46,472 nt of DNA, from assembly GCA_903889265.1 (NCBI GenBank), contig CAISWS010000403.1, positions 1-46,472 on the forward strand, in the 5' to 3' direction. Below the pieces are notes generated by a model that had not been told where the DNA came from, did no database searches, and saw only the letters and a program-made list of their open reading frames with translations. The first letter of the stretch is position 1. Each line of letters opens with the position of its first letter. The stretch comes from an uncultured Bacteroidota bacterium. Lineage in GTDB: Bacteria > Bacteroidota > Bacteroidia > Chitinophagales > LD1. Below are positions 6,209-44,319 of the stretch, one piece after another. Position numbers and translations under genes: made by a program.

Positions 6209-6227
6209 TAAAACGCAATCGCTGATT

Positions 6228-6235
6228 CAAATATA
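6228..6235 (-). promoter_or_regulatory. candidate Bacteroidota -7 promoter box (TAnnTTTG)
   Basis: The minus strand reads TATATTTG, 20 nt upstream of the ATG at 6208. No clean -33 TTTG was seen. Confidence 0.3.
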
Positions 6236-6348
6236 ATTTTCAATTTTAAAAAAAATCCGCACCATCTGCCCTTACCAATAAGAAGGCTTATGATAGACAA
6301 AAGTTGCACACGCCAACTTTCATACTGAAAACTCAATGTTTCGGGTTA

Positions 6349-21592: not shown

Positions 21593-21614
21593 AATCAACA
21601 TTTTAAAATAAATT

Positions 21615-25143: not shown

Positions 25144-27000
25144 TCATCTACCCGACTGTAACGGAAGCGAAACAATCCTTATAAAATCAGGATTTGTAAC
25201 TGATGAAATAATTACTTTAACCACATCCCCTCCAGCAGGTTTTTTATTGGGTGAGATTTCAAGATTTACCGACTTTCCACTTCGAATCACCTGCGTGGTT
25301 AACTCGTTTCCATAAGCCCCTTTAACTGAGGATATTTTAACCTTATAGCGATCCTCTTCTGTACCGGCATTGAAAATTCTCAGTTTACATGAGGGTGCTC
25401 TATCACATAAAATATCACTGTCGGTAGTTACACTAAAATAACAGGGATAAAGAGATGAAGTATAATATACCTGGTATAATGAATTTGGTTGCCACGCAGA
25501 AAAGTTGAGGTCATATTTCTCCATCTCGGCCTGCCATACTACTTTTTTTTCACGTGTAACTTCAAAAACCCTGTTCGTTTTACCCATACAAACCAACAGG
25601 TTGCCGTCTTTTAGCTCGTTAATACTTCCGCCACGCAGGCTGTGGTAAACAATACCATCAAACCTGCAGTCAAATTTCCAAAGCAACCTGCTTTTTGCAC
25701 TGTCCGAGAATATAACCACGCTTGAAGGCTCAACAGGTAAACCACTATTGGCAGATGGCAAATTGCCGTTACTAAAAACAGCTATAGAACCATCATGTAA
25801 CAAAGTTACATCGTGTTGCTTGGCAAAAAAACCGTCGCCATCATCAGCACCGCCCAGGGGCATAGCGGCACCCCAGCTGCGAATGGCTTTTCCGCTTTTC
25901 AAATCGATTTTTACAACCCTGCTTACATTGCGGAAACCGGCAAAAACAAAACCATTTTTTTCATCCACATCAAAAGCGTTTAAATGCCCGCCCGGCTCCC
26001 TGGCAAGAACACCTGAGTCAGGTGGTGCCTGCAACATGTTCTTTACCTCATCAAGCGTAAAGTAATTCTTCGAATTCCAACTCCATATCAATCTGCCCTT
26101 TTTATCAAACTCTTTAATGATATCGTACTGCAGGCCGGTTGCCCCGCCAATTATCCTCGGTGCGGTGGGTATCGACATCGGCGCGCCGGCAGGTTGCCGT
26201 TGTAATTCACCCACCGACAGGCTTGCAGGCGCCGCTGTTTGCGATGGATTGACAGTTGAAATAAGTGAAGGCGGAACCGGTTCGTTAATTTTACTTTGCA
26301 CCATATAATTGCCATCCGCAAGGCGTTTAAAACAATGGTTATAGCTATAAGGGTTAGGCATTAAACCTTTTACAGAGTCAGGTAATACGGTGTTTTTAGG
26401 TGCCATCCATAAAATATTACCATTCAAATCACTTTCAACGGCCTTTCTTCCTTCCAAAAAAGTAAGCGTTCCCGCCCGGGTAAGTTGCAAATCATTAATT
26501 TCCCCTTCGGGCCTGCCGGTTTCAGAATCCGGAGGTAAAAACCAAACAAAATTTCCGTTACGGTCAGCTATGGTACGCACTTCATCCAATACTAAAAGGC
26601 CGGTCTCATTTGCGTTGACATCATTATTTAAAACCCTTAACCGGTAAACACTTGTATCAGCATATTTATTTTTTAATATCTCAAAACTCATTGGTCCCAC
26701 CCAACCGGTTTGCCTGCCACTTTTTATTCCGGTGTATTTCCAGCTGTATTTCCTGCCAAATTGAAGGCCACTGATCATAGTAGCTGTTGAAGAATCAATA
26801 CTTTCAGCAACCTTAGATATTTTTTCATCTCCGTTATCTGCATACACTTGCAGCAAATAAACCTCTGCGCCTGGCACTTTTGGATGCTCGAACATAACCT
26901 GGGTATAATTCAGCTTAGCTCCTTCCGCAGGCCACATTTGTCCGTGCGCTAAATGCGAAACTACCAGTAGAAATAATAAAACTGCTCCTTTATAACCCAT
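25144..27000 (-). CDS. aryl-sulfate sulfotransferase (ASST)-like secreted beta-propeller protein, paralog 2
   Basis: 618 aa, collinear with 11320..13080. Shared motifs are GAKLNYTQVMFEHPKV vs GARLNYNQIMFECEKV, NHCFKRLADGNYMV, KQHDVTLLHDGSIAVFSNGN and SSLYPCYF. It has an extra Pro/Ala-rich insert (PVPPSLISTVNPSQTAAPASL...). Confidence 0.55.
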   Translation of the reverse strand: MGYKGAVLLFLLVVSHLAHGQMWPAEGAKLNYTQVMFEHPKVPGAEVYLLQVYADNGDEKISKVAESIDSSTATMISGLQFGRKYSWKYTGIKSGRQTGWVGPMSFEILKNKYADTSVYRLRVLNNDVNANETGLLVLDEVRTIADRNGNFVWFLPPDSETGRPEGEINDLQLTRAGTLTFLEGRKAVESDLNGNILWMAPKNTVLPDSVKGLMPNPYSYNHCFKRLADGNYMVQSKINEPVPPSLISTVNPSQTAAPASLSVGELQRQPAGAPMSIPTAPRIIGGATGLQYDIIKEFDKKGRLIWSWNSKNYFTLDEVKNMLQAPPDSGVLAREPGGHLNAFDVDEKNGFVFAGFRNVSRVVKIDLKSGKAIRSWGAAMPLGGADDGDGFFAKQHDVTLLHDGSIAVFSNGNLPSANSGLPVEPSSVVIFSDSAKSRLLWKFDCRFDGIVYHSLRGGSINELKDGNLLVCMGKTNRVFEVTREKKVVWQAEMEKYDLNFSAWQPNSLYQVYYTSSLYPCYFSVTTDSDILCDRAPSCKLRIFNAGTEEDRYKVKISSVKGAYGNELTTQVIRSGKSVNLEISPNKKPAGGDVVKVIISSVTNPDFIRIVSLPLQSGR

Positions 27001-32350: not shown

Positions 32351-35300
32351 CTACCTTATTTTCAGTACAGGTAACCCCGCTGCCTCCAGTTCGCGGTTAA
32401 TATTACCAAATTCAGCATTTACAAGTTCCCATTTCATGCCAAACCGGTCAAAACGCGTATGCAACCCATCCACTGCTTTTACAAGTTGCTCGTTAGGCGC
32501 AACATCCGCAGCCTGAAGCATATTAAACAGCGATTGGTCCGCTTCGCTTATACCATCTAAACTTTCATCTTTACTACCGGCAGGTGTGCTTTGTAAACCA
32601 TTTAACCTTACAATCATTTCATTTAACCGGGTTTTCATGGTGTCATTTACTTTGGGCAACAATTGATTAATCTGGCGCTGCAAAGATTTTAAAGCATCTG
32701 AACCGCCCTTAATTAATTTTTTTTGCTCATAACAAACCATGGATAAATCGTATTGCTGTTTTAAATCCTCCTTTGAGATTTTTACCCTGGGGTCCATAAC
32801 CAAATAAAAGGCCTGTACCTCCTCGGCATTGCCCGCTCTCAATCTGACGGTATAAATGCCTGGCACCATCAACGGCGAGGTAGGTTCAGGTGCTGTATTC
32901 TGGTAAACCGCTGAAATTGGATAAACCGGAGGCTCGTTTATAGGTTGATAATGCAAATCCCATACAAACCGGTGCGCCCCTGGCTCGTTTGAAAGTATTT
33001 GCTGAGGCCGTATCCAGTATAAAGGAATATTTACATCCGGAATTTTATACAGCGTATCGTAATTATTAAAATGCCTTATCAGCCTTCCATCCGAATCAAA
33101 AATATCAAGCGCTACCATGTTGGCTTTATCCTTCAGGTAATAATCAATCACCGCCCCATCAGGTGGGTTCTGCCCGATTGGTTCATCGGGAGGAAGTGGC
33201 GTGTCGGGGTTCATGTTCCACCTAACCCGGTAAGCAGGTGCGGGGCCATATAAAATAACAGCCTTCTTCATTAATTCAGCATTCAGTTGCCGCAGCGGGG
33301 AAATATCATCCAGTATCCAAAACGAGCGGCCATGAGTTGCCACCACTACGTCGTTATCTTTTATTACTAAATCGCGGATAGAAGTTGCAGGCATATTTAA
33401 CCGCAGCGATTGCCAGTGTCCGCCTTCATCCACCGAGAAATAAACTGCCCTTTCTGAACCGGCAAATAAAAGCCCTTTACGTATGGCATCTTCACGCACC
33501 ACATTAATAGGGTCATCGGGCAAACCGCTAACAATTTCATGCCATGTCTTTCCGCCATCATTGGTTTTAAAAATATGCGGGTGCATATCATCACAGCGTA
33601 TCCGGTTAACCGCAACATAAACTGTATTTGGGTCAGTATGACTGGCATCTATCATAGAGATTTTACTCCACGATGTAATTTGGGGTGGGGTTACATTACT
33701 CCAGGTTTGGCCGCCATTGCGCGTAACCTGTATCAGGCCGTCGTCTGTCCCAGCCCATATAATGTTACTGTCAACCGGTGAGGGGGCTATGGTATAAATA
33801 ACCCCGCGCCGTGGCATGGTTTTCATATCCTCAGTTTTATAAACCCCTACACTGGCGGGGATGTCGTACTGAGTACGGGTAAGGTCAGGGCTGATTACAG
33901 ACCACGAATGTCCGCCATCATAAGTTTTAAAAAGCACATTACCTGCATAAAACATTACATGAGGATTGACCGGCGAAAAAACAACCGGCGCAGTACGGAC
34001 GAACCGGTACTCACCTTTATTATCCGGCACCGGCGTAATATCCTGTACCTGCCCGGTGCGTTTGTTATATCGCGATAGTTTACCGCCATAAATAATGTTA
34101 GGGTCCAGAGGATCGGCCACCACATAGCCCCACTCCTCCGCCCCAACCGGGTGCCAATCGCGAAAGGTGATAGCCCCATCATTTCCGCGCGAAGCAATAC
34201 CTACCGAACCACTTTCCTGTTGAGCACCATACACGTTGTAAGGAAATACATTATCCGCACTAACATGATATAATTGCGCAGTGGGCTGATTGTACCACGA
34301 GCTCCACGTTTGACCGCCATTTACAGTAACAACAGCTCCCTGGTCACCCGCCAAAAGCATAATATCTGTATTGTCCGGATTTATCCATAACCGGTGGTAG
34401 TCATCGCCGCCCGGTGCGCCTTTAATACCTGCCCAGGTCTTACCGCCGTTAATCGATTTCCACACCACTACATTTACCGCGTAAACCACCTCTGCATTTT
34501 TGGGGTCGGCTTTTATCTCCGCAAAATCGTCACCCCGGTCCCATAATCTTTTATCACCGCTAAGTTTGGTCCAGCTTTCACCGGCATCATCACTACGGTA
34601 AACGCCCCCGTATCCGGCATCAGCGTTAACCGTTGCGTATAAAATATTATGATTGCTTGCTGCAACGCAAAACCCAATACGGCTCAACCCTTGTTTGTAA
34701 GTTGGCAAACCCGTAGCAATTGGTTTCCAGGTATTACCACCATCCCCCGATTTATATAACCCGCTTTTAGGGCCCTGCCATTTTCCGTTTTCCCAAGGCG
34801 CTTGCCTTGCAGCCCATAAATCAGCATAAACCACCTGCGGATTGACCGGGTCAATTTCAACCTGCACGGCACCCGAGTTTTCGTCAAAATACAAAACCTT
34901 CTTCCAGGTTTTCCCCCCGTCCATTGTTCTGAAAACGCCACGTTGTTCATTCGGCCCGTAAGGATGTCCCAGCACCGCAGCAAAGACCCGGTTTTCATTT
35001 TTTTCATCAATACATAAACCACCTATTTGTTGCGCTTCGCTAAGCCCTGTGTTATGCCAGGATTTTCCGCCATCGTCCGAGCGATAAACCCCATTGCCCA
35101 CCGAAAGGTCGGGCCGCTGAAGGCCTTCGCCACTGGCGGCATAAATTACATTGGGGTTTGAGGGAGCTACGGCAACATCACCTGTTGAACCGGTGGGCTG
35201 GCTGTCAAAAACGGGGTTCCAGGTGCGGCCAAAATCATTGGTTTTCCAAACGCCGCCATTGTTTACGCCGATATAAAAAATGTTGGGTTGTTTAACTATG

Positions 35301-35464
35301 CCACTGGCACCCACGGTTCTGCCACCCCGGTAAGGGCCAATCATCCGCCACTTTAAATTGTTGTAATAGGTGCTGTCGAATGATTGGGCAAAAATTCCAT
35401 TATGGAATAAGAAAAACCCAAATAGCAATAGTGCACTGCATTTTACTATACTGAACATCTTCAT
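32351..35464 (-). CDS. BNR/Asp-box repeat protein, sortilin-VPS10 / glycosyl-hydrolase-like
   Basis: 1037 aa with a signal peptide. At least ten SxDxGxTW-like Asp-boxes (SDDGGKSWHN, TMDGGKTWKK, SGDGGNTWKP, SDDAGESWTK, SINGGKTWAG, TVNGGQTWSS, TYDGGHSWSV, TRNGGQTWSN, TNDGGKTWHE, VDEGGHWQS). Helical C-terminal tail. Confidence 0.8.
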   Translation of the reverse strand: MKMFSIVKCSALLLFGFFLFHNGIFAQSFDSTYYNNLKWRMIGPYRGGRTVGASGIVKQPNIFYIGVNNGGVWKTNDFGRTWNPVFDSQPTGSTGDVAVAPSNPNVIYAASGEGLQRPDLSVGNGVYRSDDGGKSWHNTGLSEAQQIGGLCIDEKNENRVFAAVLGHPYGPNEQRGVFRTMDGGKTWKKVLYFDENSGAVQVEIDPVNPQVVYADLWAARQAPWENGKWQGPKSGLYKSGDGGNTWKPIATGLPTYKQGLSRIGFCVAASNHNILYATVNADAGYGGVYRSDDAGESWTKLSGDKRLWDRGDDFAEIKADPKNAEVVYAVNVVVWKSINGGKTWAGIKGAPGGDDYHRLWINPDNTDIMLLAGDQGAVVTVNGGQTWSSWYNQPTAQLYHVSADNVFPYNVYGAQQESGSVGIASRGNDGAITFRDWHPVGAEEWGYVVADPLDPNIIYGGKLSRYNKRTGQVQDITPVPDNKGEYRFVRTAPVVFSPVNPHVMFYAGNVLFKTYDGGHSWSVISPDLTRTQYDIPASVGVYKTEDMKTMPRRGVIYTIAPSPVDSNIIWAGTDDGLIQVTRNGGQTWSNVTPPQITSWSKISMIDASHTDPNTVYVAVNRIRCDDMHPHIFKTNDGGKTWHEIVSGLPDDPINVVREDAIRKGLLFAGSERAVYFSVDEGGHWQSLRLNMPATSIRDLVIKDNDVVVATHGRSFWILDDISPLRQLNAELMKKAVILYGPAPAYRVRWNMNPDTPLPPDEPIGQNPPDGAVIDYYLKDKANMVALDIFDSDGRLIRHFNNYDTLYKIPDVNIPLYWIRPQQILSNEPGAHRFVWDLHYQPINEPPVYPISAVYQNTAPEPTSPLMVPGIYTVRLRAGNAEEVQAFYLVMDPRVKISKEDLKQQYDLSMVCYEQKKLIKGGSDALKSLQRQINQLLPKVNDTMKTRLNEMIVRLNGLQSTPAGSKDESLDGISEADQSLFNMLQAADVAPNEQLVKAVDGLHTRFDRFGMKWELVNAEFGNINRELEAAGLPVLKIR

Positions 35465-35520
35465 GGCTGAAAAGTAATAGAAAAGATTGGCTACTGAGTC
35501 ACGAACGCACAGTCATTTTA

Positions 35521-36546
35521 TTACCCCACATCATACCAAACCCTGGTCCCTTCGCTGCAATTAGTACAAATATCAATCTCCGCCCTGCCTTTAAGCACGC
35601 GGCTGCGGAATGAGCGGTACAAATCGCTTTGCCATATTTGCGCAAACGATTTGGTGTGAAGGTCGCCTAACTGATGTTGCGCGTCTTTATCAAAGCAACA
35701 GGGCACTATTTTGCCATCCCAGGTTATAACGCAGCTATGCCATAATTTCCAGCAATGGTTCAGCAACTCATTTTTGATTTGATATTCGCCCCTGCCGTTT
35801 TTTTTATATCTGGAATACTGCTCAATATCAGGCATCAGCGGGTTACCTTTTTTAAAATCATTTAGCTGCGCGGTTTTAAGCTTTACTTCATCAACACCCA
35901 GTTCCCTGGCAAGTTTTTTCACATCATCCAACTGGTGCTGATTAGGCCTTACCACTAAAAACTGAAAAATAATATGTGGTGTTTTTGATTTTAGTTCACG
36001 CCGCATCCCCACCAGGTTTTTAGTGCCTTCAATTACTTTTTCGAGGCTACCGCCCACCCGGTATTGTTCATAGGTTTCCTGAGTGGTACCATCAATTGAA
36101 ATGATAATACGGTCAAGGCCCGATTCTACCGTTTCCCTTGCCTTTCGCTCAGTTAAAAAATGGGCGTTGGTTGAGGTTACCGTGTAAATTTTTTTCCGCG
36201 CCGCATATTTTACCAGTTCCGGAAAACGCGGGTGCATATACGGTTCGCCCTGAAAATAGAAATACAGGTAAATCAGCTTCTCTCCTGTTTCATCTATCAG
36301 CCGTTTGTAAAAGTCGTAATCAAGGTTTCCTGTGGGCCGGGTAAAGGATTTCAAGCCACTTGGGCACTCCGGGCAACCCAGGTTACAACTGGTAGTAGGC
36401 TCAACCGAAACATTAAAAGGCATACCCCACTGCATAGGTTTGCCACTTTGCTTTGCCAGATAGTAAGAAGATAACACCATTGAGGCATTAGCTACTTTTG
36501 CCGGACTTAATTTCGATAAAAAATTGAAGGTGTCGTTTAGCTTCAC
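35521..36546 (-). CDS. radical SAM enzyme with C-terminal SPASM-type auxiliary cluster domain
   Basis: GTG start. CxxxCxxC (TSCNLGCPEC). C-terminal Cys-rich region HSCVITWDGKIVPCCFDKD...LGDL...IW...CTNC. Confidence 0.8.
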   Translation of the reverse strand: MKLNDTFNFLSKLSPAKVANASMVLSSYYLAKQSGKPMQWGMPFNVSVEPTTSCNLGCPECPSGLKSFTRPTGNLDYDFYKRLIDETGEKLIYLYFYFQGEPYMHPRFPELVKYAARKKIYTVTSTNAHFLTERKARETVESGLDRIIISIDGTTQETYEQYRVGGSLEKVIEGTKNLVGMRRELKSKTPHIIFQFLVVRPNQHQLDDVKKLARELGVDEVKLKTAQLNDFKKGNPLMPDIEQYSRYKKNGRGEYQIKNELLNHCWKLWHSCVITWDGKIVPCCFDKDAQHQLGDLHTKSFAQIWQSDLYRSFRSRVLKGRAEIDICTNCSEGTRVWYDVG

Positions 36547-36718
36547 TGAAAAACAAAGTTAAGCCAAACACCGGTGTAAACAGCGTTTAGTTTATCAGCA
36601 GGCAAGTAAATCTGAAATATTTCCAAAGCCTCTTCAGGGCAACCCTTGCCCGAAGAAACTCTCCATAGTGTGGGTTATACTAAAACTGTGTGTTAAACTC
36701 TTTTCTTTCGCCCTCCCG

Positions 36719-36749
36719 TTTTATCCCCCCAAGGGGTGGGGGGATAAAA
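36719..36749. terminator. perfect 12-bp hairpin TTTTATCCCCCC / GGGGGGATAAAA (possible terminator or insulator after the two-component genes)
   Basis: Arms at 36719-36730 and 36738-36749, loop AAGGGGT. Flanks TCTTTC / GAAAGA extend the pairing imperfectly. No canonical U-tract on either strand. Confidence 0.3.
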
Positions 36750-36934
36750 ACGAGAAAGACTAAAATATTCCTTAGTGTCAGCAAAGGAAAGCCTCATTGT
36801 AATTAAGTGATACGAAGGTCGGTAACTGAATGGTCCTGAACAATACCTACAAAGTGGTATTCGCTCAATTAAATGTATAGTGATCTATAAATCAACACAG
36901 CATGCGAAGAGCACAATCAACATAAAGATTTGAT

Positions 36935-37594
36935 TTACAGAAGCTTGTGCTTATGAACGAAATTTATAAGCTCAATTGTGTTATTTAAGTTCAGCTTTTC
37001 AAGAATGTTTTTCCTGTGCGTTTTAACAGTATGTTTACTTAAAAACAACTTCTTCGCTATATCCTCTGAGTTTAAACCCTGGGTAATCAGCTTAACTACC
37101 TCCAGCTCACGCTCCGAAATCTTTTGCTTTAACAAAAAAATATCGTCTTTATTGGTTTGCTCGTCAATTTCAGTTTTAATAACTGCCCCATCGCTTATAA
37201 ATGAGCCATTATTGCCTCTAGCCATAATCAGGCGCAGTTTTTTAGCCAGCTCAACCGACGATGTATATTTAAGCAACATGGCTGCCGCCCCGGCAGTCTT
37301 TATACGCTGGCGCATTTTATCATCATCATAGGTGGTAAGTGCCACTACCACAATATCAGGGTATTTCTCCCTTACCATAGCACAAGCTTTAAAGCCATCC
37401 ACAACCGGCATGTTTAAATCCATCAATACCAGGTGCGGCTGCATGGTGGTTAACATCTGCATCAGCTCCTCGCCGTTCGGGGCAATCCCCATCAGCTTAA
37501 AATCCTCCTGCTGTTCAAGCATTATGCCTATTCCTTCCGCCACAATAATCTGGTCGTCGGCAATAATAATCTGGGTGACTGATGAGGCTGACAT
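36935..37594 (-). CDS. response regulator, NarL/FixJ (LuxR HTH) family
   Basis: REC domain (IIIADDQ, LVLMDLNMP, VVALTTY) plus C-terminal HTH ISERELEVVKLITQGLNSEDIAKKLFLSKHTVKTHRKNILEKL. Confidence 0.9.
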   Translation of the reverse strand: MSASSVTQIIIADDQIIVAEGIGIMLEQQEDFKLMGIAPNGEELMQMLTTMQPHLVLMDLNMPVVDGFKACAMVREKYPDIVVVALTTYDDDKMRQRIKTAGAAAMLLKYTSSVELAKKLRLIMARGNNGSFISDGAVIKTEIDEQTNKDDIFLLKQKISERELEVVKLITQGLNSEDIAKKLFLSKHTVKTHRKNILEKLNLNNTIELINFVHKHKLL

Positions 37595-37670
37595 TTTATG
37601 ATTAAATAGATAAAGAAATATATTCCGCTAATATACAAAATGCCATTTAGCGCATCTGTATATATCTGAT

Positions 37671-38984
37671 TCAACTGATAGTTTCCCTGGCCTGTTTAGG
37701 CAACCTGATATAAAAATTACACCCCTTTCCGGGTTCCGATATACACCCTACATCCGCCCCAAAGGCATCCGCTATTTTTTTTACAATGGCCAGCCCCAAG
37801 CCCATAGAATTCTCTCCCTCTCTTGGTACAGATGAGGTTACACCGTATTGTTTAAAGAGCTTTTCCATATCCGCCGCTGATATGCCCGGCCCCGCGTCTA
37901 TTACACAAATCTCAACATAAGCGGGGGCATCGCTCAACTGCACCTTTACGTTACTTCCTGCCGGGCTGTATTTCATGCCATTTGAAATAAAATTTTCAAG
38001 TATTTGCTCCAGCCGGGCTTTATCAGTTTGTAAATAAATACGGTTTTCAGGCAATTGAGCAACTAAATTGATTTGTTTGCTCAAAGCCACAACACTGGCC
38101 TGCTTTAAGTAATTAGTAATTAAGTCGTTCAAACATAACTCAACGGGCTTTAATCCCATTTTGCCCGATTCAATCATATTTACATCCAGCAGGTTTTTAA
38201 TCAGCTCAAACATCCGGTCAGCAGAGGTTGCAATATGTTGCAGATAAATAGTGCGCTTCTCCGGCGTAGTTTTTTCATAACCTGAAATTTCGGCAAAGGC
38301 CCTTACACTGGCCAGGGGGTTTTTAAGGTCGTGGGCCACAATATTCAAAAAATTGTTTTTTTCAATATTCAGGCGTTCAAGTGCTTTATTCTGCTCTTCC
38401 AGCATTTTCTGTGCTTTTCTTTTTCCGCTTTCTGAAATAAAAATGATAAGGGAAATAATAGCTACCAAACCGCTTAATGATAAAAGGTTGAACAGGGGGT
38501 CCTTGGAAGTATCAAACCTCACAGCAAACCTTACACCCCGAAAATTAAAATAGGCAAAGCCACCTACAATAATCAGCGATATAACCAGCCAGGCCATACT
38601 GGCCCGTATGCCCTGCATCATCATGGCCACAGCAGGCAACATAATTATCCACGGCGCTACATTGGCGTTTCTGATACCCCCATCCCAATAAACCAGGCAT
38701 ATATAAACCACAGCAATGAGGGCGGTATAAACATTTGCCAGCGTAACCAAACCTAATCCCCATTTCAAAAGAAGCGGAAGAATCAGAAAAACCACGATGG
38801 AAATAACCATGGCTACGGCAAAATAATAACCACTCATGTAAATACTCATCAGGCAATATCCTAACGCAAAAAATGCAGTAAGAAAACAGGAATTAACAAA
38901 AAGCCGGTGTAACCTTAATGTTTCCGGGCTGGCATAGGCTGAATCCGGAACAAACCACGAAATCCACTCATCAAATTTATTCAT
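37671..38984 (-). CDS. sensor histidine kinase with an all-membrane (about 6-TM) input domain
   Basis: ~190-aa N-terminal polytopic region with no sizeable periplasmic loop, then a coiled coil. H-box NIVAHDLKNPL. ATPase boxes FISNGMKYSP, DAGPGI, GLGLAIVKK. Its ATG overlaps the upstream stop (ATGA at 38981-38984). Confidence 0.85.
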   Translation of the reverse strand: MNKFDEWISWFVPDSAYASPETLRLHRLFVNSCFLTAFFALGYCLMSIYMSGYYFAVAMVISIVVFLILPLLLKWGLGLVTLANVYTALIAVVYICLVYWDGGIRNANVAPWIIMLPAVAMMMQGIRASMAWLVISLIIVGGFAYFNFRGVRFAVRFDTSKDPLFNLLSLSGLVAIISLIIFISESGKRKAQKMLEEQNKALERLNIEKNNFLNIVAHDLKNPLASVRAFAEISGYEKTTPEKRTIYLQHIATSADRMFELIKNLLDVNMIESGKMGLKPVELCLNDLITNYLKQASVVALSKQINLVAQLPENRIYLQTDKARLEQILENFISNGMKYSPAGSNVKVQLSDAPAYVEICVIDAGPGISAADMEKLFKQYGVTSSVPREGENSMGLGLAIVKKIADAFGADVGCISEPGKGCNFYIRLPKQARETIS

Positions 38985-39655
38985 ACCTGCGGCGGATTAA
39001 CCTTATACAAAAGATATAGGTAATAGATATCAAACAAAGCACAAAAAACATACAAAGAAGTAAGAAAATAATTATCCGGGTATTTCGATTGAAACATAAC
39101 ACTTATAATGCCGGTACCCAAAAACTTGGCCCACCCGGTAAGTTTGCGGTTGCCCTCGTAACCCGGTATAAAAAACATGTAAATAAAGCAGATACTCATC
39201 ACCAGGTTTATAACATACGAATCAAGGGGGGCCATCGGCAGGTCATACTTCAGAATAAAACTGCACTGAACAAAAAAGCTGACCACCAACCCCACAATCA
39301 GAAACTTATGAAAATTCTGTTTAAAAAAGTCTACCCGCATTTGCTTGTATCCATACCGGTAAAGCGAAAATATAATGTAAGCGTCTAACACCATCCAGGC
39401 CCAGTAAGCTAATACCAGCGCGTTGCCCATATTAGGCACAAAAAATATGGCCGTGGTTATTTCGCAGCCAAAATTAAGGGTAATGGCAATGGCCGGTATA
39501 TCAAGTGTTTGCTTTTTGCCTATCCAATAAATGGTATTAATGTAGGCGGCCACCCAAAGCACCGCGCCGGTAGTAAATAACACAATTTGCGTTACTGTAT
39601 AATCAACCGTATTAAACCAGGGATGCGGGGTTTGTAAATACTCAAATATGGTCAT
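38981..39655 (-). CDS. 7-TM integral membrane protein, putative Pyr4/PaxB-like transmembrane terpene cyclase (isoprenoid-modifying)
   Basis: 224 aa with seven hydrophobic helices. LWVAAYINTIYWIGKKQTLDIPAIAITLNFGCE parallels the remembered W.INY...Y...K..TYG....P...N[FI][AS]WE block holding the catalytic Glu of Pyr4/PaxB/AusL. The last helix, FCALFDIYYLY, parallels the block holding the catalytic Asp. Recall-based alignment, not verified. Confidence 0.4.
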   Translation of the reverse strand: MTIFEYLQTPHPWFNTVDYTVTQIVLFTTGAVLWVAAYINTIYWIGKKQTLDIPAIAITLNFGCEITTAIFFVPNMGNALVLAYWAWMVLDAYIIFSLYRYGYKQMRVDFFKQNFHKFLIVGLVVSFFVQCSFILKYDLPMAPLDSYVINLVMSICFIYMFFIPGYEGNRKLTGWAKFLGTGIISVMFQSKYPDNYFLTSLYVFCALFDIYYLYLLYKVNPPQV

Positions 39656-39673
39656 GCTTAACTTTTGGTTTAG

Positions 39674-41488
39674 TTATCCGAAAATAAGAGCAAACAAAGC
39701 CCTGAAAGCAAATTCAATTCCATAGGCCAGGCCCCAGAATATCATTAAAATTTTGAGCCACAATGGGGTTTTAGCTGCGTGTGTAAGGCCGCGGTTGTAT
39801 CGCCACAAATCGTACCATTTAAGCGGTAGCAACAGCCAGGGTTCAGTTAGCGGCCATATCTTACAATAAGGTTGGTTTTGCCCTGCCGCATCAATTATAC
39901 AATTAACGGCACGTCGCGCCGCTTCATTGGCCCCTTCCATGGTTGCCAGGTCAGTATTGGTGCGCACATAATCCGCCGCCAGAAAAAGGTTTTGAATATT
40001 GGAACTTGCGTTGGGCCGTAAGGTCCATGAATGCACAGTATTTACTAACAGCGGCTCCAGATTAAACAGCGCCTCATGGCTGCGGCTTTTGTCCTCCAAA
40101 GCCTTTTGGCCCGTTTCAGCATCATGGATATCGCTATCAATATAGTAATATTCAATCATGCTTTTATCCAGCACTTTTGCCCCGTTTATATTCAGGCTGC
40201 GCGATAGCTGTAGCCACACAAAATCAGCAATCTCCTGCCAGGTGCAATCCCTCGCCAGCTTCTCAGCACCGGTAACCGGGTCTTTAAAAGTAGTTTTCAA
40301 CCAGTCAGAGACATCAATAGAAATGATACTTTTCACCTTACCGTTGTAGCACTTACTCAAATCAAAATTTTTCCAGTATTGTGTTTGCGAAATAGAAGTA
40401 ACAGCCCACTCACTATCGCTGTAAATAACATGTCCGTCACTGATATTCACTTCCTGGTTCAGGTAAAACTGAATACCGTTCATCCAGCTTACACTTTTAG
40501 CCAGCGTGTGCAGGGAATCCAGCACATTGTCAGCGGCCACCATACCATGGCTCCTTCTCACCAGCGCAGCGGCTGCCTCAACCGGCACCGCCATAATGTA
40601 GTAATCAGCATTATCTTTTATTAACTGGCCGTTACCATCCTTTACGTGCACACCGCCAACAGCGGCACCGGTCATTTCAATCTTCTCTACCTCGTGGTTC
40701 AAATGATATTTAACCCCTTTTTGTTCCAGGTATTTGCTCCAGGGGTTCAGCCATTTATCATTGGTTGGGCCGTTTAAAACTCTGTCGGTGTTAACACCCG
40801 GTGTGGCCATGGTATACACCAGTTGCAAAAAGACATTGCCACCGGTTTTGGTACTTGCAAACTTAGCTTGCGCCGCAACCAGGGTACGCACCAGGCCCCC
40901 TGCCAGCAAATGCTGGTAGGTTTCGCTGTAATAATCAGCTTCCAGAAATTCCCACCAGCTTAACTTTTCGTACTCGTCCCTTCTCCGTTCTTTACAACTG
41001 GTGGCTAGTTCCAGCACCCGGTCTTCAAAAAACTTCCTTTCTTCGGCGGTTAAGCCGCTGTTTTTAAATTCGGTAATAAACTGAAAAAGCACTTTCCAAT
41101 CGGCAAAGCTGCGCGGAAAGTTGGCGATTGAAATAAGCGGTGGCTTATCATAGCGCGCCAGCATAATGCGGTGCGTGGGTGTAAGGTTGCCGTAACATCC
41201 GTTTTTCTGATACGGCTTACCAGGCCCTTCCTGGTAAGGTATGCGTTTCATGGTATCCGTAATGTGCTTGTAAAAGCCGGGGAAAAACCTGAACCCATGC
41301 TCACCCGGTAACGGGGTCCCTGTATCCTGTTGGCCACCGGGGTCCACATCTACCGACCGTGCTTTGCCGCCAACATAAGTGGGATTTTTATCGTATACAG
41401 TTACGTCAAATCCACGTTCAATTAATTCGTGTGCAGCGCTCATTCCTGCAACTCCTCCGCCTATAATTATTACTTTTCTCTGCTTCAT
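39674..41488 (-). CDS. FAD-dependent oxidoreductase of the amine-oxidase / phytoene-desaturase (CrtI/PDS-like) superfamily with C-terminal membrane helix
   Basis: Rossmann motif KVIIIGGGVAGMSAAHELIERGFDVTVYDK...YVGGKARS, then GEHGFRFFPGFY. C-terminal flavin-contact motif FLAADYVRTNTDLATMEGANEAARRAVN. Terminal hydrophobic segment LWLKILMIFWGLAYGIEFAFRALFALIF. 604 aa. Confidence 0.7.
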   Translation of the reverse strand: MKQRKVIIIGGGVAGMSAAHELIERGFDVTVYDKNPTYVGGKARSVDVDPGGQQDTGTPLPGEHGFRFFPGFYKHITDTMKRIPYQEGPGKPYQKNGCYGNLTPTHRIMLARYDKPPLISIANFPRSFADWKVLFQFITEFKNSGLTAEERKFFEDRVLELATSCKERRRDEYEKLSWWEFLEADYYSETYQHLLAGGLVRTLVAAQAKFASTKTGGNVFLQLVYTMATPGVNTDRVLNGPTNDKWLNPWSKYLEQKGVKYHLNHEVEKIEMTGAAVGGVHVKDGNGQLIKDNADYYIMAVPVEAAAALVRRSHGMVAADNVLDSLHTLAKSVSWMNGIQFYLNQEVNISDGHVIYSDSEWAVTSISQTQYWKNFDLSKCYNGKVKSIISIDVSDWLKTTFKDPVTGAEKLARDCTWQEIADFVWLQLSRSLNINGAKVLDKSMIEYYYIDSDIHDAETGQKALEDKSRSHEALFNLEPLLVNTVHSWTLRPNASSNIQNLFLAADYVRTNTDLATMEGANEAARRAVNCIIDAAGQNQPYCKIWPLTEPWLLLPLKWYDLWRYNRGLTHAAKTPLWLKILMIFWGLAYGIEFAFRALFALIFG

Positions 41489-41876
41489 GGAATAATTGTG
41501 AGGTAAGATAGAATTAGTTATTTATTCAGGCAAAACATTCTTTACAAACTAATTATATCCATGTATTATAACTACCGGAATTCCGTGGTCTAATTAAATG
41601 GACATTTAATTCAATCTCCCTCTGTAAACCAGATTTTGAAATCCCCTCTTTAAAGGAGTAACAAAATTGGCAGAAAAATATCAGGAGACACCATAAAACA
41701 GATGAAATGGTTGTAATAAATAACTATATACTTATCTGAACGATATACCTTTAGCCACATAATGGCTTGCAGTATAGCACAAAAGCGCATAATAATATTG
41801 CCTTATGCCGGCAGATCTTTTACATTTTTTGAAAAGAAGCCCCGCTTTTGCCACTATATTTACCTCTCAATTTGAA

Positions 41877-43478
41877 ATGAACAAGACTCTGGCTTTACTC
41901 TTTATTATTGCGTTTTCAAAAACCGGCAATGCACAGGCGCCGCTTAAAACGCACCCCTATTCCACGCAAAGCGAGGAGGGCTTTTCGCCCTGCCGAGATA
42001 CTTTTTCAATTCTTAAAAACCATTTGTCGTACGATATCGGTATCATACTCCCATCATGGCTACCGGTTGTAGACCGCAACTACGTGGGTATTATGGAGGG
42101 CAAAGTTATATGCAACCCCACCGATGGCAGCGATGGGCCGCATGTGTATGAGGAGGACCTGCCGTTCTATCACTATTCGCATGATGTTAATTTTGATATT
42201 ATACCTGATAGAACCGAGGATAACCGGTTTACCAATTTGTTACCCCTGCTGGTATACAAAAGGCAACCACAAAACGATACGGTAATGAATACCGTTATGC
42301 ATTGCGAATGGGAATGCGGCCTTGCCATGGCCAACCGGATTAACCCCATCAGGGCCGATAATGATGCCGGGCGAAGCGGAGGATTTTTCAGTGCAGGCCA
42401 CGAGATAGGGGATATCATCTGGAACTGGCCTGCACCGGGCGACTGGGCGCACGTTGAAGGTAACTATGTATGGGACCGCGGCCATCCACCGGCTAATGCC
42501 GAACTGCACCCCCTTAGGTTTGTTGCTTTTAAACGCGCATTGCCCGACAGAATAATTATTGGCGACAGCTCGATAAAGTTTGCCACCCGCATTGATATTT
42601 TTGCCAGTGGCGACGGCGGGGCTTTGCTGAACAACCGGTACAACGCACCCAAGTTTGTGCGCCGGGTAAATATGAGTTCGAAAGATTATGAGTTTACTGC
42701 CAAAATTGATCTGCCGCGCCCGTCGCCAAAAGCACATCTTAAATACGTTTTAACGACCCAGAAAGGGGATAACTTTACGGTTGGTGAAATGATTGAGTTG
42801 AACGATGACTCGGCTACGGCGCGTGTTATAATACCATGGAATTCGAAAAACGCAAACGACCTGGAAATTTACGCCCGTACCCTGGATGTTTACTGGGATG
42901 AGGGTAGCGGGGTTGCAGCAACACAGCCGGTTGATATTTATAAAGTAACGCTTACGAACATCCATTTCAGATACCTGGATGAGATACTTTCGAAAGCCGA
43001 AGTGCGTCTTTTTGCCAGCGTGGGCAACGACTGGATTTTTGTAAACGACTTTTTTCCGAAAAAGGGAAAAATACTGTCCAAGGGCCTGGGCAAAACATAC
43101 AAACACCACTGGACTTTGAATAACCAGTTTATTGTTTGTGTTCCGCGCGGTAAAAGCTTTAGGTTAAACATGAGCGGTTGGGAAGTAGATGGTGTAGATA
43201 TGCTTTTTGGTAAATTGCTCGACCCGGGTTCGCCGTGTAACCGCAAAACCAAACATACCTTCAAAGCCAGCTCTTTTACCTTTGCCATGTTTATGCGCGG
43301 ATGCCTTGACGATAATTACGGCGAGATAACCAAACTACACAATTACAATAACCTTGGTAAAACTGATCAGTTTAAAAACTCCCCCCAAAGTGGTGTCAAC
43401 GATGACCCCTGCCCGTTCAGCAAATACCCGCTAAAGGACAGGGTATTTCTGACTTACACCATCGAAAAAATAAATTAA
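41877..43478 (+). CDS. secreted hypothetical protein (533 aa, no recognisable family)
   Basis: ATG at 41877 gives the signal MNKTLALLFIIAFSKTGNAQA; the ORF track starts at 41805. The long ORF has no motif I can assign. A near-consensus -7 box, TATATTTA, lies at 41855-41862. Confidence 0.65.
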   Translation: MNKTLALLFIIAFSKTGNAQAPLKTHPYSTQSEEGFSPCRDTFSILKNHLSYDIGIILPSWLPVVDRNYVGIMEGKVICNPTDGSDGPHVYEEDLPFYHYSHDVNFDIIPDRTEDNRFTNLLPLLVYKRQPQNDTVMNTVMHCEWECGLAMANRINPIRADNDAGRSGGFFSAGHEIGDIIWNWPAPGDWAHVEGNYVWDRGHPPANAELHPLRFVAFKRALPDRIIIGDSSIKFATRIDIFASGDGGALLNNRYNAPKFVRRVNMSSKDYEFTAKIDLPRPSPKAHLKYVLTTQKGDNFTVGEMIELNDDSATARVIIPWNSKNANDLEIYARTLDVYWDEGSGVAATQPVDIYKVTLTNIHFRYLDEILSKAEVRLFASVGNDWIFVNDFFPKKGKILSKGLGKTYKHHWTLNNQFIVCVPRGKSFRLNMSGWEVDGVDMLFGKLLDPGSPCNRKTKHTFKASSFTFAMFMRGCLDDNYGEITKLHNYNNLGKTDQFKNSPQSGVNDDPCPFSKYPLKDRVFLTYTIEKIN

Positions 43479-43542: not shown

Positions 43543-44319
43543 ATGGCTAACTTAAAATCATACAAAAACATTTATCTGGTCTTTATTCTTTTTTTACTAC
43601 AAATAAACTGCATGGCATGGGGGCCTGCCGGACATAAAATTGTAGCCAAAATTGCCTTTAGCCAGTTGAATGCGTCAGAGAAAGACTCGCTTACAAAATA
43701 TTTACAGGGAGCTACGATTGAGGAAGCCAGCGTATGGATGGACGAAATAAAGTCTGACAAATCATATGATTTTCAGAAACCCTACCACTATATAAACATA
43801 GATAAAGATGTTCCCTTCAATGCCGCAGATACCGGTAATATTGTTTGGGAATTAAAACGTGTTGTTGCTGAGTTAAAAGAGCGCCAGAAATATTCGAAAG
43901 AAAAAATTGAGATTGACTTTAAGATTCTGATGCACCTGATGGGCGATCTTCACCAACCCTTGCATGTTGGCTATGCCAAAGACCAGGGTGGCAATACTGT
44001 TCAGGTATTTTATAATCAAAGCCCAACCAACCTGCACCGCGTTTGGGATAGCGAAATAATACAGGATGCCGTATTAGGACAGCCTCTCGACTGGTCTAAA
44101 CTAAGCCAGTTTACAAAAGAAGACCTGGCACGAATAAGGCACGTCGATTTTGAAGCCTGGATGAATGAATCGCGCACCCTGCTGGATACTGTCTATGATT
44201 TTAAGGGAAACGACCTGAAACATAAATACATGGAGCAGAACGCACCCATTGTTGAAAGACAATTGCTTTTGGGTGGAATAAGGCTGGCGGCTGTTTTGAA
44301 ATACATTTTTCAAAACTAA
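43543..44319 (+). CDS. S1/P1-family zinc nuclease (secreted)
   Basis: The mature N-terminus begins WGPAGHKIV. HYINID, HLMGDLHQPLHV and NLHRVWDS match the S1/P1 metal-ligand motifs. Confidence 0.85.
   Translation: MANLKSYKNIYLVFILFLLQINCMAWGPAGHKIVAKIAFSQLNASEKDSLTKYLQGATIEEASVWMDEIKSDKSYDFQKPYHYINIDKDVPFNAADTGNIVWELKRVVAELKERQKYSKEKIEIDFKILMHLMGDLHQPLHVGYAKDQGGNTVQVFYNQSPTNLHRVWDSEIIQDAVLGQPLDWSKLSQFTKEDLARIRHVDFEAWMNESRTLLDTVYDFKGNDLKHKYMEQNAPIVERQLLLGGIRLAAVLKYIFQN

What the first reader, a model, noticed from the sequence alone, without database searches (positions are those of the whole stretch)
36935..41488. Isoprenoid-type tailoring enzymes fused into one operon with a dedicated two-component system
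Four co-directional minus-strand genes are tightly packed. The order is a CrtI/PDS-like flavoprotein (604 aa, C-terminal membrane helix), then after an 18-nt gap a 7-TM Pyr4/PaxB-like protein, then a membrane-only sensor kinase whose ATG overlaps the upstream stop (ATGA), then after a 76-nt gap a LuxR-type regulator.

No canonical carotenoid or terpene partners (crtB/crtE, class I terpene synthase, squalene-hopene cyclase) are in the window, so this is not a standard carotenoid cluster.

Translational coupling of a putative membrane terpene cyclase to a kinase with no extracytoplasmic sensor domain suggests a unit that makes or remodels a cyclised or oxidised membrane isoprenoid and senses it, or the membrane state, directly. 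I do not know of a described system with this architecture.
Basis: partly seen in the sequence, partly recalled or inferred. Interest (0 to 1): 0.8.

Follow-up and report, generated by a model that had tools for sequence, protein, structure and literature searches.

The report
Terpene-cyclase-coupled membrane sensor module
A flavoenzyme and a membrane terpene cyclase sit beside a membrane-embedded sensor in about 90% of the related bacterial loci I could check, which points to an undescribed signalling unit that probably reads a self-made membrane lipid. In this window the unit signals through a histidine kinase and a LuxR-type regulator.

Summary

**Identities**
- The 604-aa protein is a phytoene-desaturase-like flavoenzyme with a C-terminal membrane helix.
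- The 224-aa protein is a seven-helix member of the Pyr4-like transmembrane terpene cyclase family.
- The kinase has six membrane helices and no external domain.
- The regulator is REC plus LuxR/GerE.

**Conservation**
- The flavoenzyme, cyclase and sensor are a conserved trio in Bacteroidota, Acidimicrobiia and relatives. The sensor gene follows the cyclase in 36 of 42 genome loci and 40 of 43 metagenome loci where this could be checked.
- The conserved part of the third gene is only its six-helix N-terminal domain. The output differs: usually a class III adenylate cyclase, sometimes a histidine kinase (as here), once a PP2C phosphatase.
- A second, unrelated membrane domain (DUF6989) can replace the cyclase, and the same sensor still follows it.
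- The LuxR regulator is specific to this window's clade.

**Reading**
The enzymes most likely make or modify a membrane isoprenoid that the sensor domain detects. This step is inferred; no substrate is known. I found no paper describing this module.

Novelty: new variant of a known kind. Interest 0.75.

The parts
39674..41488 (-). FLAV: a 604-aa phytoene-desaturase/HpnE-like FAD enzyme with a C-terminal membrane helix (residues about 576-603).
   Evidence: Pfam Amino_oxidase E 3.6e-19. The best NCBIfam hits are HpnE, zeta-carotene desaturase and PDS, all far below their cut-offs. AlphaFold2 pLDDT is 83.4. The best PDB match is rice phytoene desaturase 5mog, E 4e-22, TM-score 0.78.
38981..39655 (-). 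TMTC: a 224-aa, seven-helix Pyr4-like transmembrane terpene cyclase homologue. Acidic residues E65, D91, D138 and D209 are invariant.
   Evidence: PF25129 at 23.2 bits for this protein. 25 of 26 orthologues match, best E 9.2e-18. Orthologue P0092 is named 'transmembrane-type terpene cyclase' by NCBI. Alignment A1. AlphaFold2 gives 7 TM helices, pLDDT 90.6.
38385..38984 (-). TM6: the six-helix sensor domain (residues 1-200 of the kinase). Its start codon overlaps the TMTC stop (ATGA at 38981-38984).
   Evidence: The domain is shared with the N-termini of cyclase-, kinase- and phosphatase-type proteins that follow TMTC or DUF6989 elsewhere. There are 361 representative clusters in the public library. 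It is distantly MASE6-like: 12 of 90 relatives match MASE6, but the window domain itself only reaches E 2.3.
37671..38384 (-). Kinase core of the sensor: HisKA (H218 in the motif VAHDLKNPL) and HATPase_c.
   Evidence: Pfam HisKA E 6.2e-14 and HATPase_c E 4.9e-23.
36935..37594 (-). NarL/LuxR-type response regulator (REC with D59, plus GerE helix-turn-helix), 76 nt downstream of the kinase.
   Evidence: Pfam Response_reg E 1.6e-21 and GerE E 8.1e-18. It is adjacent only in the window clade: L001 and L003, and L064-L066, L068 and L069.
41489..41804 (-). Upstream intergenic region shared with the divergent gene at 41805. The proximal ~110 nt are conserved in L002 and L003 and contain the palindrome CGGAATTCCG at 41576-41585. 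This is a candidate promoter and operator.
   Evidence: Alignment A6 and the sequence itself. Function was not tested. The sigma-70-type scan is uninformative for Bacteroidota.

Best explanation
The locus is a lineage-specific version of a widespread three-part membrane signalling module.

**Proposed mechanism.**
1. A membrane-anchored, phytoene-desaturase-like flavoenzyme (FLAV) and a membrane-embedded, acid-catalysed terpene cyclase (TMTC) act together on a lipophilic polyene or polyprenyl lipid already present in the membrane.
2. In other genomes the unrelated membrane domain DUF6989 takes the place of TMTC.
3. A dedicated six-helix sensor domain (TM6) is made from a gene translationally coupled to the cyclase gene. 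It detects the product within the bilayer, or the enzyme-product complex.
4. In most organisms TM6 drives a class III adenylate cyclase, giving cAMP. In this window it drives a histidine kinase that phosphorylates the adjacent NarL/LuxR regulator, turning the same input directly into transcription.

**Shown.** The gene order and coupling, the family assignments, the cross-phylum conservation, the output-domain swapping and the alternative membrane partner.

**Inferred.** That the enzymes are active on an isoprenoid, that TM6 senses their product, and what the regulator controls.
For: **1. Coupling.** There is an 18-nt gap and an ATGA overlap in the window. In the genome loci the sensor starts within -29 to +5 nt of the cyclase stop, -4 being common.

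**2. Conservation.** FLAV lies upstream of TMTC in all 43 genome loci with upstream DNA, directly adjacent in 42. The sensor follows TMTC in 36 of 42 genome loci and 40 of 43 metagenome loci. The carriers include Chitinophagales, Flavobacteriales, Cytophagales, Saprospiraceae, Kapaibacterium and Acidimicrobiia MAGs. The flanking genes are not conserved.

**3. Only the sensor's six-helix domain is conserved.**
- Outputs in the genome set: 27 Guanylate_cyc and 4 HisKA/HATPase.
- Outputs in the metagenome set: 22 cyclase, 11 kinase, 1 PP2C phosphatase.
- The closest relative of the window's TM6 outside its own clade is cyclase-type (P0247, 39% identity) and lies next to a TMTC.

**4. Kinase versions can still end in a cyclase.** In L030 and L061 the neighbouring response regulators include a REC-Guanylate_cyc protein.

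**5. Alternative membrane partner.**
- FLAV is fused to DUF6989 in three independent proteins (P0215, P0191, P0225). Each is followed at once by a TM6-cyclase.
- L010 carries FLAV, a stand-alone DUF6989, a TM6-cyclase, TMTC and a second TM6-cyclase. The two TM6 domains are only 25% identical, so each membrane partner has its own sensor.

**6. The enzymes look catalytically intact.**
- E65, D91, D138 and D209 are invariant in TMTC. The published mechanism for this family is Brønsted-acid initiation (PMC13307353).
- FLAV keeps its FAD-binding motifs and has a PDS-like fold.

**7. The cyclases are predicted adenylate cyclases.** All 27 plus 19 cyclases carry the Lys and Asp residues that specify ATP (combined with established knowledge of class III cyclases).

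**8. Co-variation.** Pairwise distances of TMTC and TM6 correlate better (Pearson 0.89) than either does with FLAV (0.57 and 0.68).

**9. Precedent.** Six-helix anchors of class III cyclases can act as receptors for lipophilic ligands, as shown by the CqsS swap (PMC4821796).
Against: - No substrate or product is known.
- No prenyltransferase, epoxidase, crtB/crtE or squalene cyclase is nearby.
- The window TMTC itself scores below the Pfam cut-off (23.2 versus 27).
- FLAV is far below every NCBIfam equivalog cut-off, so its chemistry is open. It could be a desaturase, reductase, isomerase or hydratase-like enzyme.
- Some clades have FLAV and TMTC without a sensor: L004, L006-L009, L046, L063 and L070-L072.
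- One locus has FLAV and the sensor without a membrane partner (L062).
- More distant TM6/MASE6-like proteins occur without FLAV or TMTC (L051, L053).
- My neighbour-joining tree of TM6 domains does not resolve a clean FLAV-linked clade.
- The one in-frame TMTC-sensor read-through (L013) is on a 2.3-kb MAG contig and may be an assembly error.
- There are no transcript or biochemical data.
- The distance correlations are not corrected for shared phylogeny.
Confidence: 0.45

Rival explanations
1. Regulated lipid or pigment operon. FLAV and TMTC make a protective pigment or membrane lipid. The sensor detects an unrelated cue such as light, oxidative stress or envelope stress, and simply controls expression of the operon it rides in.
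For: Two-component genes are often co-transcribed with their targets. A LuxR-type regulator is adjacent here. The promoter-proximal block with a palindrome is conserved in the clade. FLAV-TMTC pairs exist without any sensor, so the enzymes have a function of their own.
Against: In most loci the output is cAMP, with no local transcription factor. One locus uses a PP2C phosphatase. In L010 each membrane partner has its own sensor. The sensor has no extracytoplasmic or cytoplasmic input domain besides the six helices. Overlapping stop and start codons, and the TMTC-TM6 distance correlation of 0.89, point to partner-specific coupling.
Confidence: 0.25
2. Redox-sensing complex. FLAV works mainly as a sensor of the quinone pool or oxygen, and the membrane partner relays its state to TM6. 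No dedicated lipid product is involved.
For: PDS/CrtI-type enzymes pass electrons to quinones or O2 (established knowledge of the family). FLAV is the most constant component of the module. L062 has FLAV plus the sensor-cyclase with no membrane partner.
Against: The acidic residues expected for an acid-catalysed cyclase are invariant in TMTC. Two unrelated, enzyme-like membrane partners are used. FLAV-TMTC pairs persist in clades that lack the sensor. TMTC co-varies with TM6 more tightly than FLAV does.
Confidence: 0.15
3. Fragment of a specialised-metabolite (meroterpenoid) gene cluster with a pathway-specific regulator, like the known bacterial Pyr4-like pathways for xiamycin, tolypodiol, gromomycin and zigralone.
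For: TMTC belongs to the same Pfam family. The JACS 2026 survey kept 37 Bacteroidota sequences after filtering for terpenoid genes within 20 kb.
Against: There is no prenyltransferase, polyprenyl synthase, PKS, P450 or PHBH-type epoxidase next to the module in the window, and no gene family recurs in the flanks of the related loci. The same survey notes that many bacterial Pyr4-like genes are stand-alone and unlikely to be in such clusters.
Confidence: 0.05
4. Chance adjacency: four unrelated genes that happen to be packed together.
For: None beyond the fact that tight packing is common in Bacteroidota genomes.
Against: The trio recurs in 36 of 42 and 40 of 43 checkable loci from different phyla, with unrelated flanks.
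Confidence: 0.02

Closest known systems
Pyr4-family transmembrane terpene cyclases (fungal Pyr4/PaxB; bacterial XiaH, TylF, GroF and the zigralone cyclase)
   Same: Same Pfam family (PF25129), about 225-245 aa, seven membrane helices, conserved acidic residues. The published mechanism is protonation of an alkene or epoxide by an acidic residue (PMC13307353).
   Different: The known members sit in biosynthetic clusters with a prenyltransferase and an epoxidase or P450, and make secreted meroterpenoids or triterpenoids. This clade is paired with a PDS-like flavoenzyme and a signalling protein, has no cluster around it, and has no known product.
Phytoene desaturase / CrtI / HpnE flavoenzymes (amine-oxidase fold, COG3349)
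   Same: FAD Rossmann motif, Amino_oxidase domain, and best structural match to rice PDS (5mog, E 4e-22). The substrates of this family are membrane polyenes.
   Different: Only about 16% identity to PDS. Scores are far below all equivalog cut-offs. It carries an extra C-terminal membrane helix, or in other genomes a fused DUF6989 membrane domain. There is no crtB/crtE or hpn context.
Signal synthase plus six-helix membrane receptor pairs (CqsA/CqsS, LqsA/LqsS), and six-helix class III adenylate cyclases such as Rv1625c
   Same: Enzymes that make a lipophilic molecule are encoded next to a receptor whose only input module is six membrane helices. That module can drive either a kinase or a class III cyclase (PMC4821796).
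   Different: The sensor domain is not detectably related to CqsS. The candidate ligand-making enzymes are a flavoenzyme and a terpene cyclase, not a PLP-dependent acyl-CoA transferase. Nothing shows that the signal is exported.
MASE6 membrane-associated sensor domain (Pfam PF20966)
   Same: A multi-helix integral-membrane N-terminal domain found on kinases, cyclases, PP2C phosphatases and MCPs. 12 of 90 relatives of the window domain match MASE6 (best E 3.7e-7).
   Different: The window domain itself does not match (E 2.3), nor do the 31 TMTC- or DUF6989-linked sensors scanned (one weak MASE7 and one weak MASE11 hit only). No ligand or partner is known for MASE6.
Membrane lycopene cyclases (CrtYc/CrtYd type) working with CrtI in carotenoid clusters
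   Same: Based on my own knowledge, not tested here: a small acidic-residue membrane cyclase acts on the end of a polyene made by a CrtI/PDS-type flavoenzyme.
   Different: No sequence relationship was detected: neither TMTC nor the DUF6989 domain matched any Pfam family other than its own, even at relaxed E-values. There is no carotenoid cluster. The tie to a sensor is unprecedented.

Membership tests
Pyr4-like transmembrane terpene cyclase (PF25129) | Match to the family HMM at or above the gathering score of 27 bits. | tested here: inconclusive
   The window protein scores 23.2 bits (E 6.3e-5), aligned over profile positions 10-223 of 227. Its orthologues do match: 25 of 26, best E 9.2e-18, and P0092 reaches 44.7 bits. 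The Pfam seed is fungal only, which explains the low bacterial scores.
Pyr4-like transmembrane terpene cyclase (PF25129) | Compact protein of about 220-250 aa with seven transmembrane helices. | tested here: met
   AlphaFold2 model with pLDDT 90.6. Helices at 21-48, 55-71, 78-105, 115-136, 141-161, 171-191 and 196-218.
Pyr4-like transmembrane terpene cyclase (PF25129) | Conserved acidic residues that act as the Brønsted acid. From memory these are Glu63 and Asp218 in Pyr4. | tested here: inconclusive
   E65 (helix 2), D91, D138 and D209 (helix 7) are invariant in 26 sequences. I could not align them directly to Pyr4 because no Pyr4 sequence was available.
Pyr4-like transmembrane terpene cyclase (PF25129) | Biosynthetic cluster context: prenyltransferase plus epoxidase or P450. 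| tested here: not met
   No such genes in the window, and no gene family recurs in the flanks of the related loci.
Pyr4-like transmembrane terpene cyclase (PF25129) | Terpene cyclase activity. | not testable with these tools
   Needs heterologous expression and lipid analysis.
Phytoene desaturase / CrtI / HpnE flavoenzymes | FAD-binding Rossmann motif and Amino_oxidase domain. | tested here: met
   The GGGVAGMSAA motif is conserved. PF01593 E 3.6e-19 and PF13450 E 5.5e-12.
Phytoene desaturase / CrtI / HpnE flavoenzymes | Score above the cut-off of a named equivalog model (HpnE, PDS, ZDS, CrtD, CrtI). | tested here: not met
   HpnE 84 versus 283 bits, ZDS 57 versus 622, PDS 43 versus 569.
Phytoene desaturase / CrtI / HpnE flavoenzymes | PDS-like three-dimensional fold. 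| tested here: met
   Foldseek best hit is 5mog (rice PDS), E 4.1e-22, TM-score 0.78 on the target. The next hits are 3ka7, oleate hydratases and CrtD 4rep.
Classical two-component system | HisKA H-box plus HATPase_c in the kinase. REC with an acceptor Asp plus a DNA-binding output in the regulator. | tested here: met
   HisKA, HATPase_c, Response_reg and GerE all above their cut-offs. H218 and D59 are visible in the sequence.
MASE6 sensor domain (PF20966) | Match to the MASE6 HMM. | tested here: not met
   The window N-terminal domain scores E 2.3, 8.6 bits. 12 of 90 more distant relatives match weakly, best E 3.7e-7.
Six-helix class III adenylate cyclase (Rv1625c type) | Six membrane helices followed by a Guanylate_cyc catalytic domain with ATP-specifying Lys and Asp. 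| tested here: not met
   The window protein has a kinase core instead. Its counterparts in 27 of 31 genome loci and 22 of 40 metagenome loci meet the feature.

The most novel reading that the evidence does not exclude
This is a widespread, undescribed terpenoid-ligand signalling system. A PDS-like flavoenzyme and a membrane cyclase (Pyr4-like or DUF6989) generate a cyclised or modified isoprenoid inside the membrane. That lipid is the natural ligand of a dedicated six-helix receptor domain. Depending on lineage, the receptor drives cAMP synthesis, a phosphorelay (as in this window) or a PP2C phosphatase. If true, it would give the first physiological role for the 'stand-alone' bacterial Pyr4-like cyclases. 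It would also give a genetically defined ligand source for six-helix cyclase and kinase membrane anchors.
Probability: 0.35. Interest if true: 0.9.

Novelty: new variant of a known kind. Interest (0 to 1): 0.75.

Why it matters
- **An open question becomes testable.** What the membrane-only input domains of bacterial kinases and six-helix class III adenylate cyclases sense is a long-standing question. Here the genome itself names candidate ligand-making enzymes.
- **The association is strong.** It survives swaps of the output domain (cyclase, kinase, phosphatase) and of the membrane enzyme (Pyr4-like or DUF6989).
- **It assigns a context to orphan proteins.** Many bacterial Pyr4-like proteins were set aside by natural-product surveys as stand-alone. 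DUF6989 and a large uncharacterised branch of PDS-like flavoenzymes also gain a context.
- **Experiments are feasible.** Cultured carriers exist: Algoriphagus aestuarii KCTC 42199, Aquiflexum lacus CUG 91378, Ilyomonas limi 17mud1-8 and Lacibacter sp. H407.

Tried and rejected
1. **Word-indexed homologue search with the TM6 alignment (A4).** It returned only four fragments. I replaced it with the exhaustive representative search.
2. **Sigma-70 promoter and terminator scan of 35400-42000.** The counts equal the shuffled expectation and the model does not suit Bacteroidota. It says nothing about operon structure.
3. **Foldseek of the TMTC model against the PDB.** There is no solved Pyr4-like structure. 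The best hits are SWEET, KDEL-receptor and cystinosin folds at E about 0.02 and TM-score about 0.5, too weak to interpret.
4. **Is DUF6989 a diverged TMTC, or TM6 a duplicated TMTC?** Rejected: hhalign probability is 1% or less, and BLASTP finds nothing.
5. **FLAV-TM6 or TMTC-TM6 fusion proteins among 149 TM6 representatives.** None found. The only read-through is L013, which may be an assembly artefact.
6. **Is every MASE6-like relative coupled to FLAV and TMTC?** Rejected: the distant relatives P0309 and P0284 are not.
7. **Neighbour-joining tree of TM6 domains, to test whether sensors sort by membrane partner.** Poorly resolved and not used as evidence.
8. **Sequence search of FLAV against the PDB.** Only Rossmann-level hits. 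The fold search was needed.
9. **Literature searches.** DUF6989, MASE6, and 'Pyr4-like' combined with 'adenylate cyclase' found nothing relevant.

Full report
**1. The observation**

The four minus-strand ORFs are exactly as described:
- Flavoprotein (FLAV), 39674-41488, 604 aa.
- An 18-nt gap.
- 7-TM protein (TMTC), 38981-39655, 224 aa.
- Kinase, 37671-38984, 437 aa. Its ATG overlaps the TMTC stop (ATGA).
- A 76-nt gap.
- Regulator, 36935-37594, 219 aa.

Pfam gives the following:
- FLAV: Amino_oxidase and NAD_binding_8.
- TMTC: a near-full-length but sub-threshold Pyr4-TMTC match (23.2 bits against a cut-off of 27).
- Kinase: HisKA and HATPase_c, with nothing in its first 200 residues.
- Regulator: Response_reg and GerE.

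The window looks like Bacteroidota: it has SprB-repeat and CHU_C type IX secretion proteins and Por_Secre_tail domains. The nearest relatives are Bacteroidetes/Chitinophagaceae MAGs from bogs and lakes.

None of the 30 window ORFs scanned (all those of 150 aa or more except an overlapping antisense ORF at 14487-14945) is a phytoene or squalene synthase, a polyprenyl synthase, a class I terpene synthase or a squalene-hopene cyclase. The only related hit is a sub-threshold UbiA-family gene at 20678-21592.

**2. What the two enzymes are**

*TMTC*
- It has 131 relatives in the word-indexed search, and nearly all of the 120 listed carry a precomputed PF25129 domain. NCBI names one of them 'transmembrane-type terpene cyclase'.
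- 25 of 26 aligned orthologues match PF25129, best E 9.2e-18.
- The supplement of a 2026 JACS paper states that the Pfam seed is purely fungal. That explains the low bacterial scores.
- AlphaFold2 gives a confident seven-helix bundle (pLDDT 90.6).
- E65, D91, D138 and D209 are invariant. This fits the acid-initiated mechanism described for the family (PMC13307353).

*FLAV*
- It lies far from any named equivalog: HpnE 84 bits, ZDS 57 and PDS 43, all far below their cut-offs.
- Its model (pLDDT 83.4) is most similar to rice phytoene desaturase 5mog (E 4e-22, TM-score 0.78). Next come an uncharacterised archaeal oxidoreductase, oleate hydratases and CrtD.
- It ends in a hydrophobic helix at residues 576-603.
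- It is therefore a membrane-anchored flavoenzyme of the branch that acts on polyenes and lipids. Its exact chemistry is unknown.

**3. Synteny**

A pattern scan of one genome per species gave 45 loci.
- FLAV lies upstream of TMTC in all 43 loci that have upstream DNA. It is directly adjacent in 42.
- A third gene starts within -29 to +5 nt of the TMTC stop in 36 of the 42 loci that can be checked.
- Nothing else in the flanks is conserved. The next largest neighbour family occurs in 7 loci.
- Carriers include Chitinophagaceae, Flavobacteriales, Cyclobacteriaceae (Algoriphagus, Aquiflexum), Saprospiraceae, Kapaibacterium and many Acidimicrobiia MAGs.

An independent metagenome scan gave 53 more loci. 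The sensor gene follows TMTC in 40 of the 43 that can be checked.

**4. The key finding: the third gene is usually not a kinase**

Reading locus L013 showed a class III nucleotidyl cyclase after the membrane region. Aligning 31 third-gene products shows a shared N-terminal six-helix domain of about 195 aa (TM6). Its near-invariant positions are P13, G102, G103 and G172. Behind it sit different outputs.

| Data set | Cyclase | Kinase | PP2C phosphatase | Cut by contig end | Source |
|---|---|---|---|---|---|
| Genome loci (31 scanned) | 27 | 4 (window, L003, L030, L045) | 0 | 0 | |
| Metagenome loci (40 sensors) | 22 | 11 | 1 (L095; PDB 6k4e, E 7e-38) | 6 | |

- All cyclases carry the Lys and Asp that specify ATP. 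They are therefore predicted adenylate cyclases.
- In L030 and L061, where TM6 is on a kinase, the neighbouring regulators are a single REC protein and a REC-Guanylate_cyc protein. The signal there still ends in a cyclase.
- The closest relative of the window TM6 outside its own clade is a cyclase-type protein (P0247, 39% identity) that lies next to a TMTC.
- The kinase plus LuxR version in this window is thus an output swap. It is confined to its clade (L001, L003, L064-L066, L068, L069).

**5. A second membrane partner**

- Many FLAV homologues are about 800 aa long and carry a C-terminal DUF6989 membrane domain in place of a separate TMTC.
- Three independent fusions (P0215, P0191, P0225) are each followed immediately by a protein of about 415 aa made of TM6 plus a cyclase.
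- Locus L010 has FLAV, a stand-alone DUF6989, a TM6-cyclase, TMTC and a second TM6-cyclase. The two TM6 domains are only 25% identical.
- DUF6989, TMTC and TM6 are mutually unrelated by profile comparison.
- Two different membrane 'enzyme-like' partners have therefore each been tied to their own copy of the same sensor family.

**6. The sensor domain family**

- An exhaustive search found 361 representative clusters.
- In a sample of 90, the outputs were kinases (51), cyclases (20), SpoIIE/PP2C phosphatases (12) and MCP signalling domains (3). Twelve matched Pfam MASE6 weakly.
- The window domain itself does not reach MASE6 (E 2.3).
- Distant relatives (an MCP and a kinase-REC-GerE fusion) are not next to FLAV or TMTC. 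Close ones are.
- The coupling is thus a property of part of a broader MASE6-like sensor superfamily. A quick tree did not resolve its boundaries.

**7. Exceptions**

- One clade has FLAV and TMTC but no sensor, despite 69-83% TMTC identity to the window: L004, L006-L009, L046, L063 and L070-L072.
- One locus has FLAV and a TM6-cyclase with no membrane partner (L062).
- L013 reads from TMTC straight into the sensor in frame. It is a short MAG contig, and its relative L012 has an out-of-frame overlap, so I treat the fusion as unconfirmed.

**8. Mechanism**

The best-supported reading has three steps:
1. The flavoenzyme and the membrane cyclase act on a lipid already in the membrane.
2. The TM6 domain detects the product, or the enzyme-product complex, within the bilayer.
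3. The output domain converts this into cAMP, phosphotransfer or dephosphorylation.

Here the output runs through the kinase (H218) and the NarL/LuxR regulator (D59).

Support comes from:
- The translational coupling.
- The invariance of the input domain against changing outputs.
- The one-sensor-per-partner arrangement in L010.
- The intact catalytic motifs.
- The higher TMTC-TM6 distance correlation (0.89 against 0.57 and 0.68, not corrected for phylogeny).
- The precedent that six-helix anchors can be receptors for lipophilic ligands (PMC4821796).

Substrate, product and ligand are all inferred.

The rivals are a stress-regulated lipid or pigment operon (0.25), a FAD-based redox-sensing complex (0.15), a meroterpenoid cluster fragment (0.05) and chance (0.02).

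**9. Comparison with what is known, and novelty**

- The parts belong to known families.
- The closest system-level analogues are the CqsA/CqsS-type synthase-receptor pairs and six-helix adenylate cyclases.
- The 2026 survey of 1107 bacterial Pyr4-like proteins filtered for terpenoid genes in the neighbourhood. It remarks only that many are stand-alone and unlikely to act in meroterpenoid pathways.
- No paper in the library mentions DUF6989. None uses MASE6 in this sense: the single hit is an unrelated paper. None links Pyr4-like cyclases to adenylate cyclases.
- I rate it a new variant of a known kind: signal-making enzymes encoded with their membrane receptor. There is a realistic chance that it is a new terpenoid-based signalling system.

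**10. Verdict**

The real unit is FLAV + membrane enzyme + TM6 sensor. The two-component output is a local variant.
- Interest is 0.75.

Noticed in passing
L010:6196-11948: One Chitinophagaceae MAG locus carries FLAV, a stand-alone DUF6989 protein, a TM6-adenylate cyclase, a Pyr4-like TMTC and a second TM6-adenylate cyclase in a row. The two sensor domains are only 25% identical.
   Followed up: yes
L095:716-2152: Here the TM6 sensor domain that follows TMTC is fused to a PP2C-type serine phosphatase (PDB 6k4e, E 7e-38). This is a third output class for the module.
   Followed up: partly
L030:6667-8297 and L061:7874-9289: Where the sensor is a histidine kinase, the adjacent regulators are a single-domain REC protein and a REC-adenylate cyclase fusion. 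The phosphorelay still ends in a cyclase.
   Followed up: partly
L013:453-2306: TMTC reads in frame into the TM6-cyclase with no stop codon. This could be a natural fusion or a 1-nt assembly error. The relative L012 has an out-of-frame 17-nt overlap at the same point.
   Followed up: partly
window 41576-41585: Perfect 10-bp palindrome CGGAATTCCG, 88-97 nt upstream of the FLAV start codon. It sits inside a ~110-nt block conserved in L002 and L003. It is a candidate operator for the LuxR-type regulator.
   Followed up: no
L003:8372 region: The FLAV gene of this close relative has a 1-nt deletion near codon 36 that breaks the reading frame. It is either a MAG assembly error or a pseudogene.
   Followed up: no
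window 20678-22241 (+): A sub-threshold UbiA prenyltransferase-family gene (30.9 bits against a cut-off of 34.2) is followed by a class I SAM methyltransferase, 17 kb from the module. This is the only isoprenoid-related hint in the window.
   Followed up: partly
window 41805-43478 (+): A divergently transcribed 557-aa protein has no Pfam or NCBIfam match. It is syntenic, together with an S1/P1 nuclease gene at 43543-44319, only in the closest relatives (L001-L003).
   Followed up: partly
window 35521-36546 (-) and 32351-35464 (-): A radical SAM/SPASM maturase-like gene and a large BNR/sortilin-repeat protein lie downstream of the regulator. They are syntenic only in L001 and L003, so they are not part of the conserved module.
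   Followed up: partly
window 1967-10857 (-): Two very large SprB-repeat proteins (1413 and 1502 aa) with CHU_C type IX secretion signals lie side by side.
   Followed up: no
window 11320-13080 (+) and 25144-27000 (-): Two paralogous arylsulfotransferase (ASST)-family genes lie in the same window.
   Followed up: no
L058:11461-12162 (-): A Crp-family cNMP-binding transcription factor lies about 3 kb downstream of a FLAV-DUF6989 plus TM6-cyclase pair. It could be the local cAMP effector.
   Followed up: no
window 38981-39655 (model m9d467a48b424): The predicted TMTC fold weakly resembles the seven-helix SWEET, KDEL-receptor and cystinosin folds (Foldseek E about 0.02, TM-score about 0.5). The PDB copy searched holds no Pyr4-like structure.
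   Followed up: partly
L062:4001-7041: FLAV is followed after 152 nt by a short TM6-adenylate cyclase with no TMTC or DUF6989 between them. This variant lacks the membrane enzyme.
   Followed up: partly
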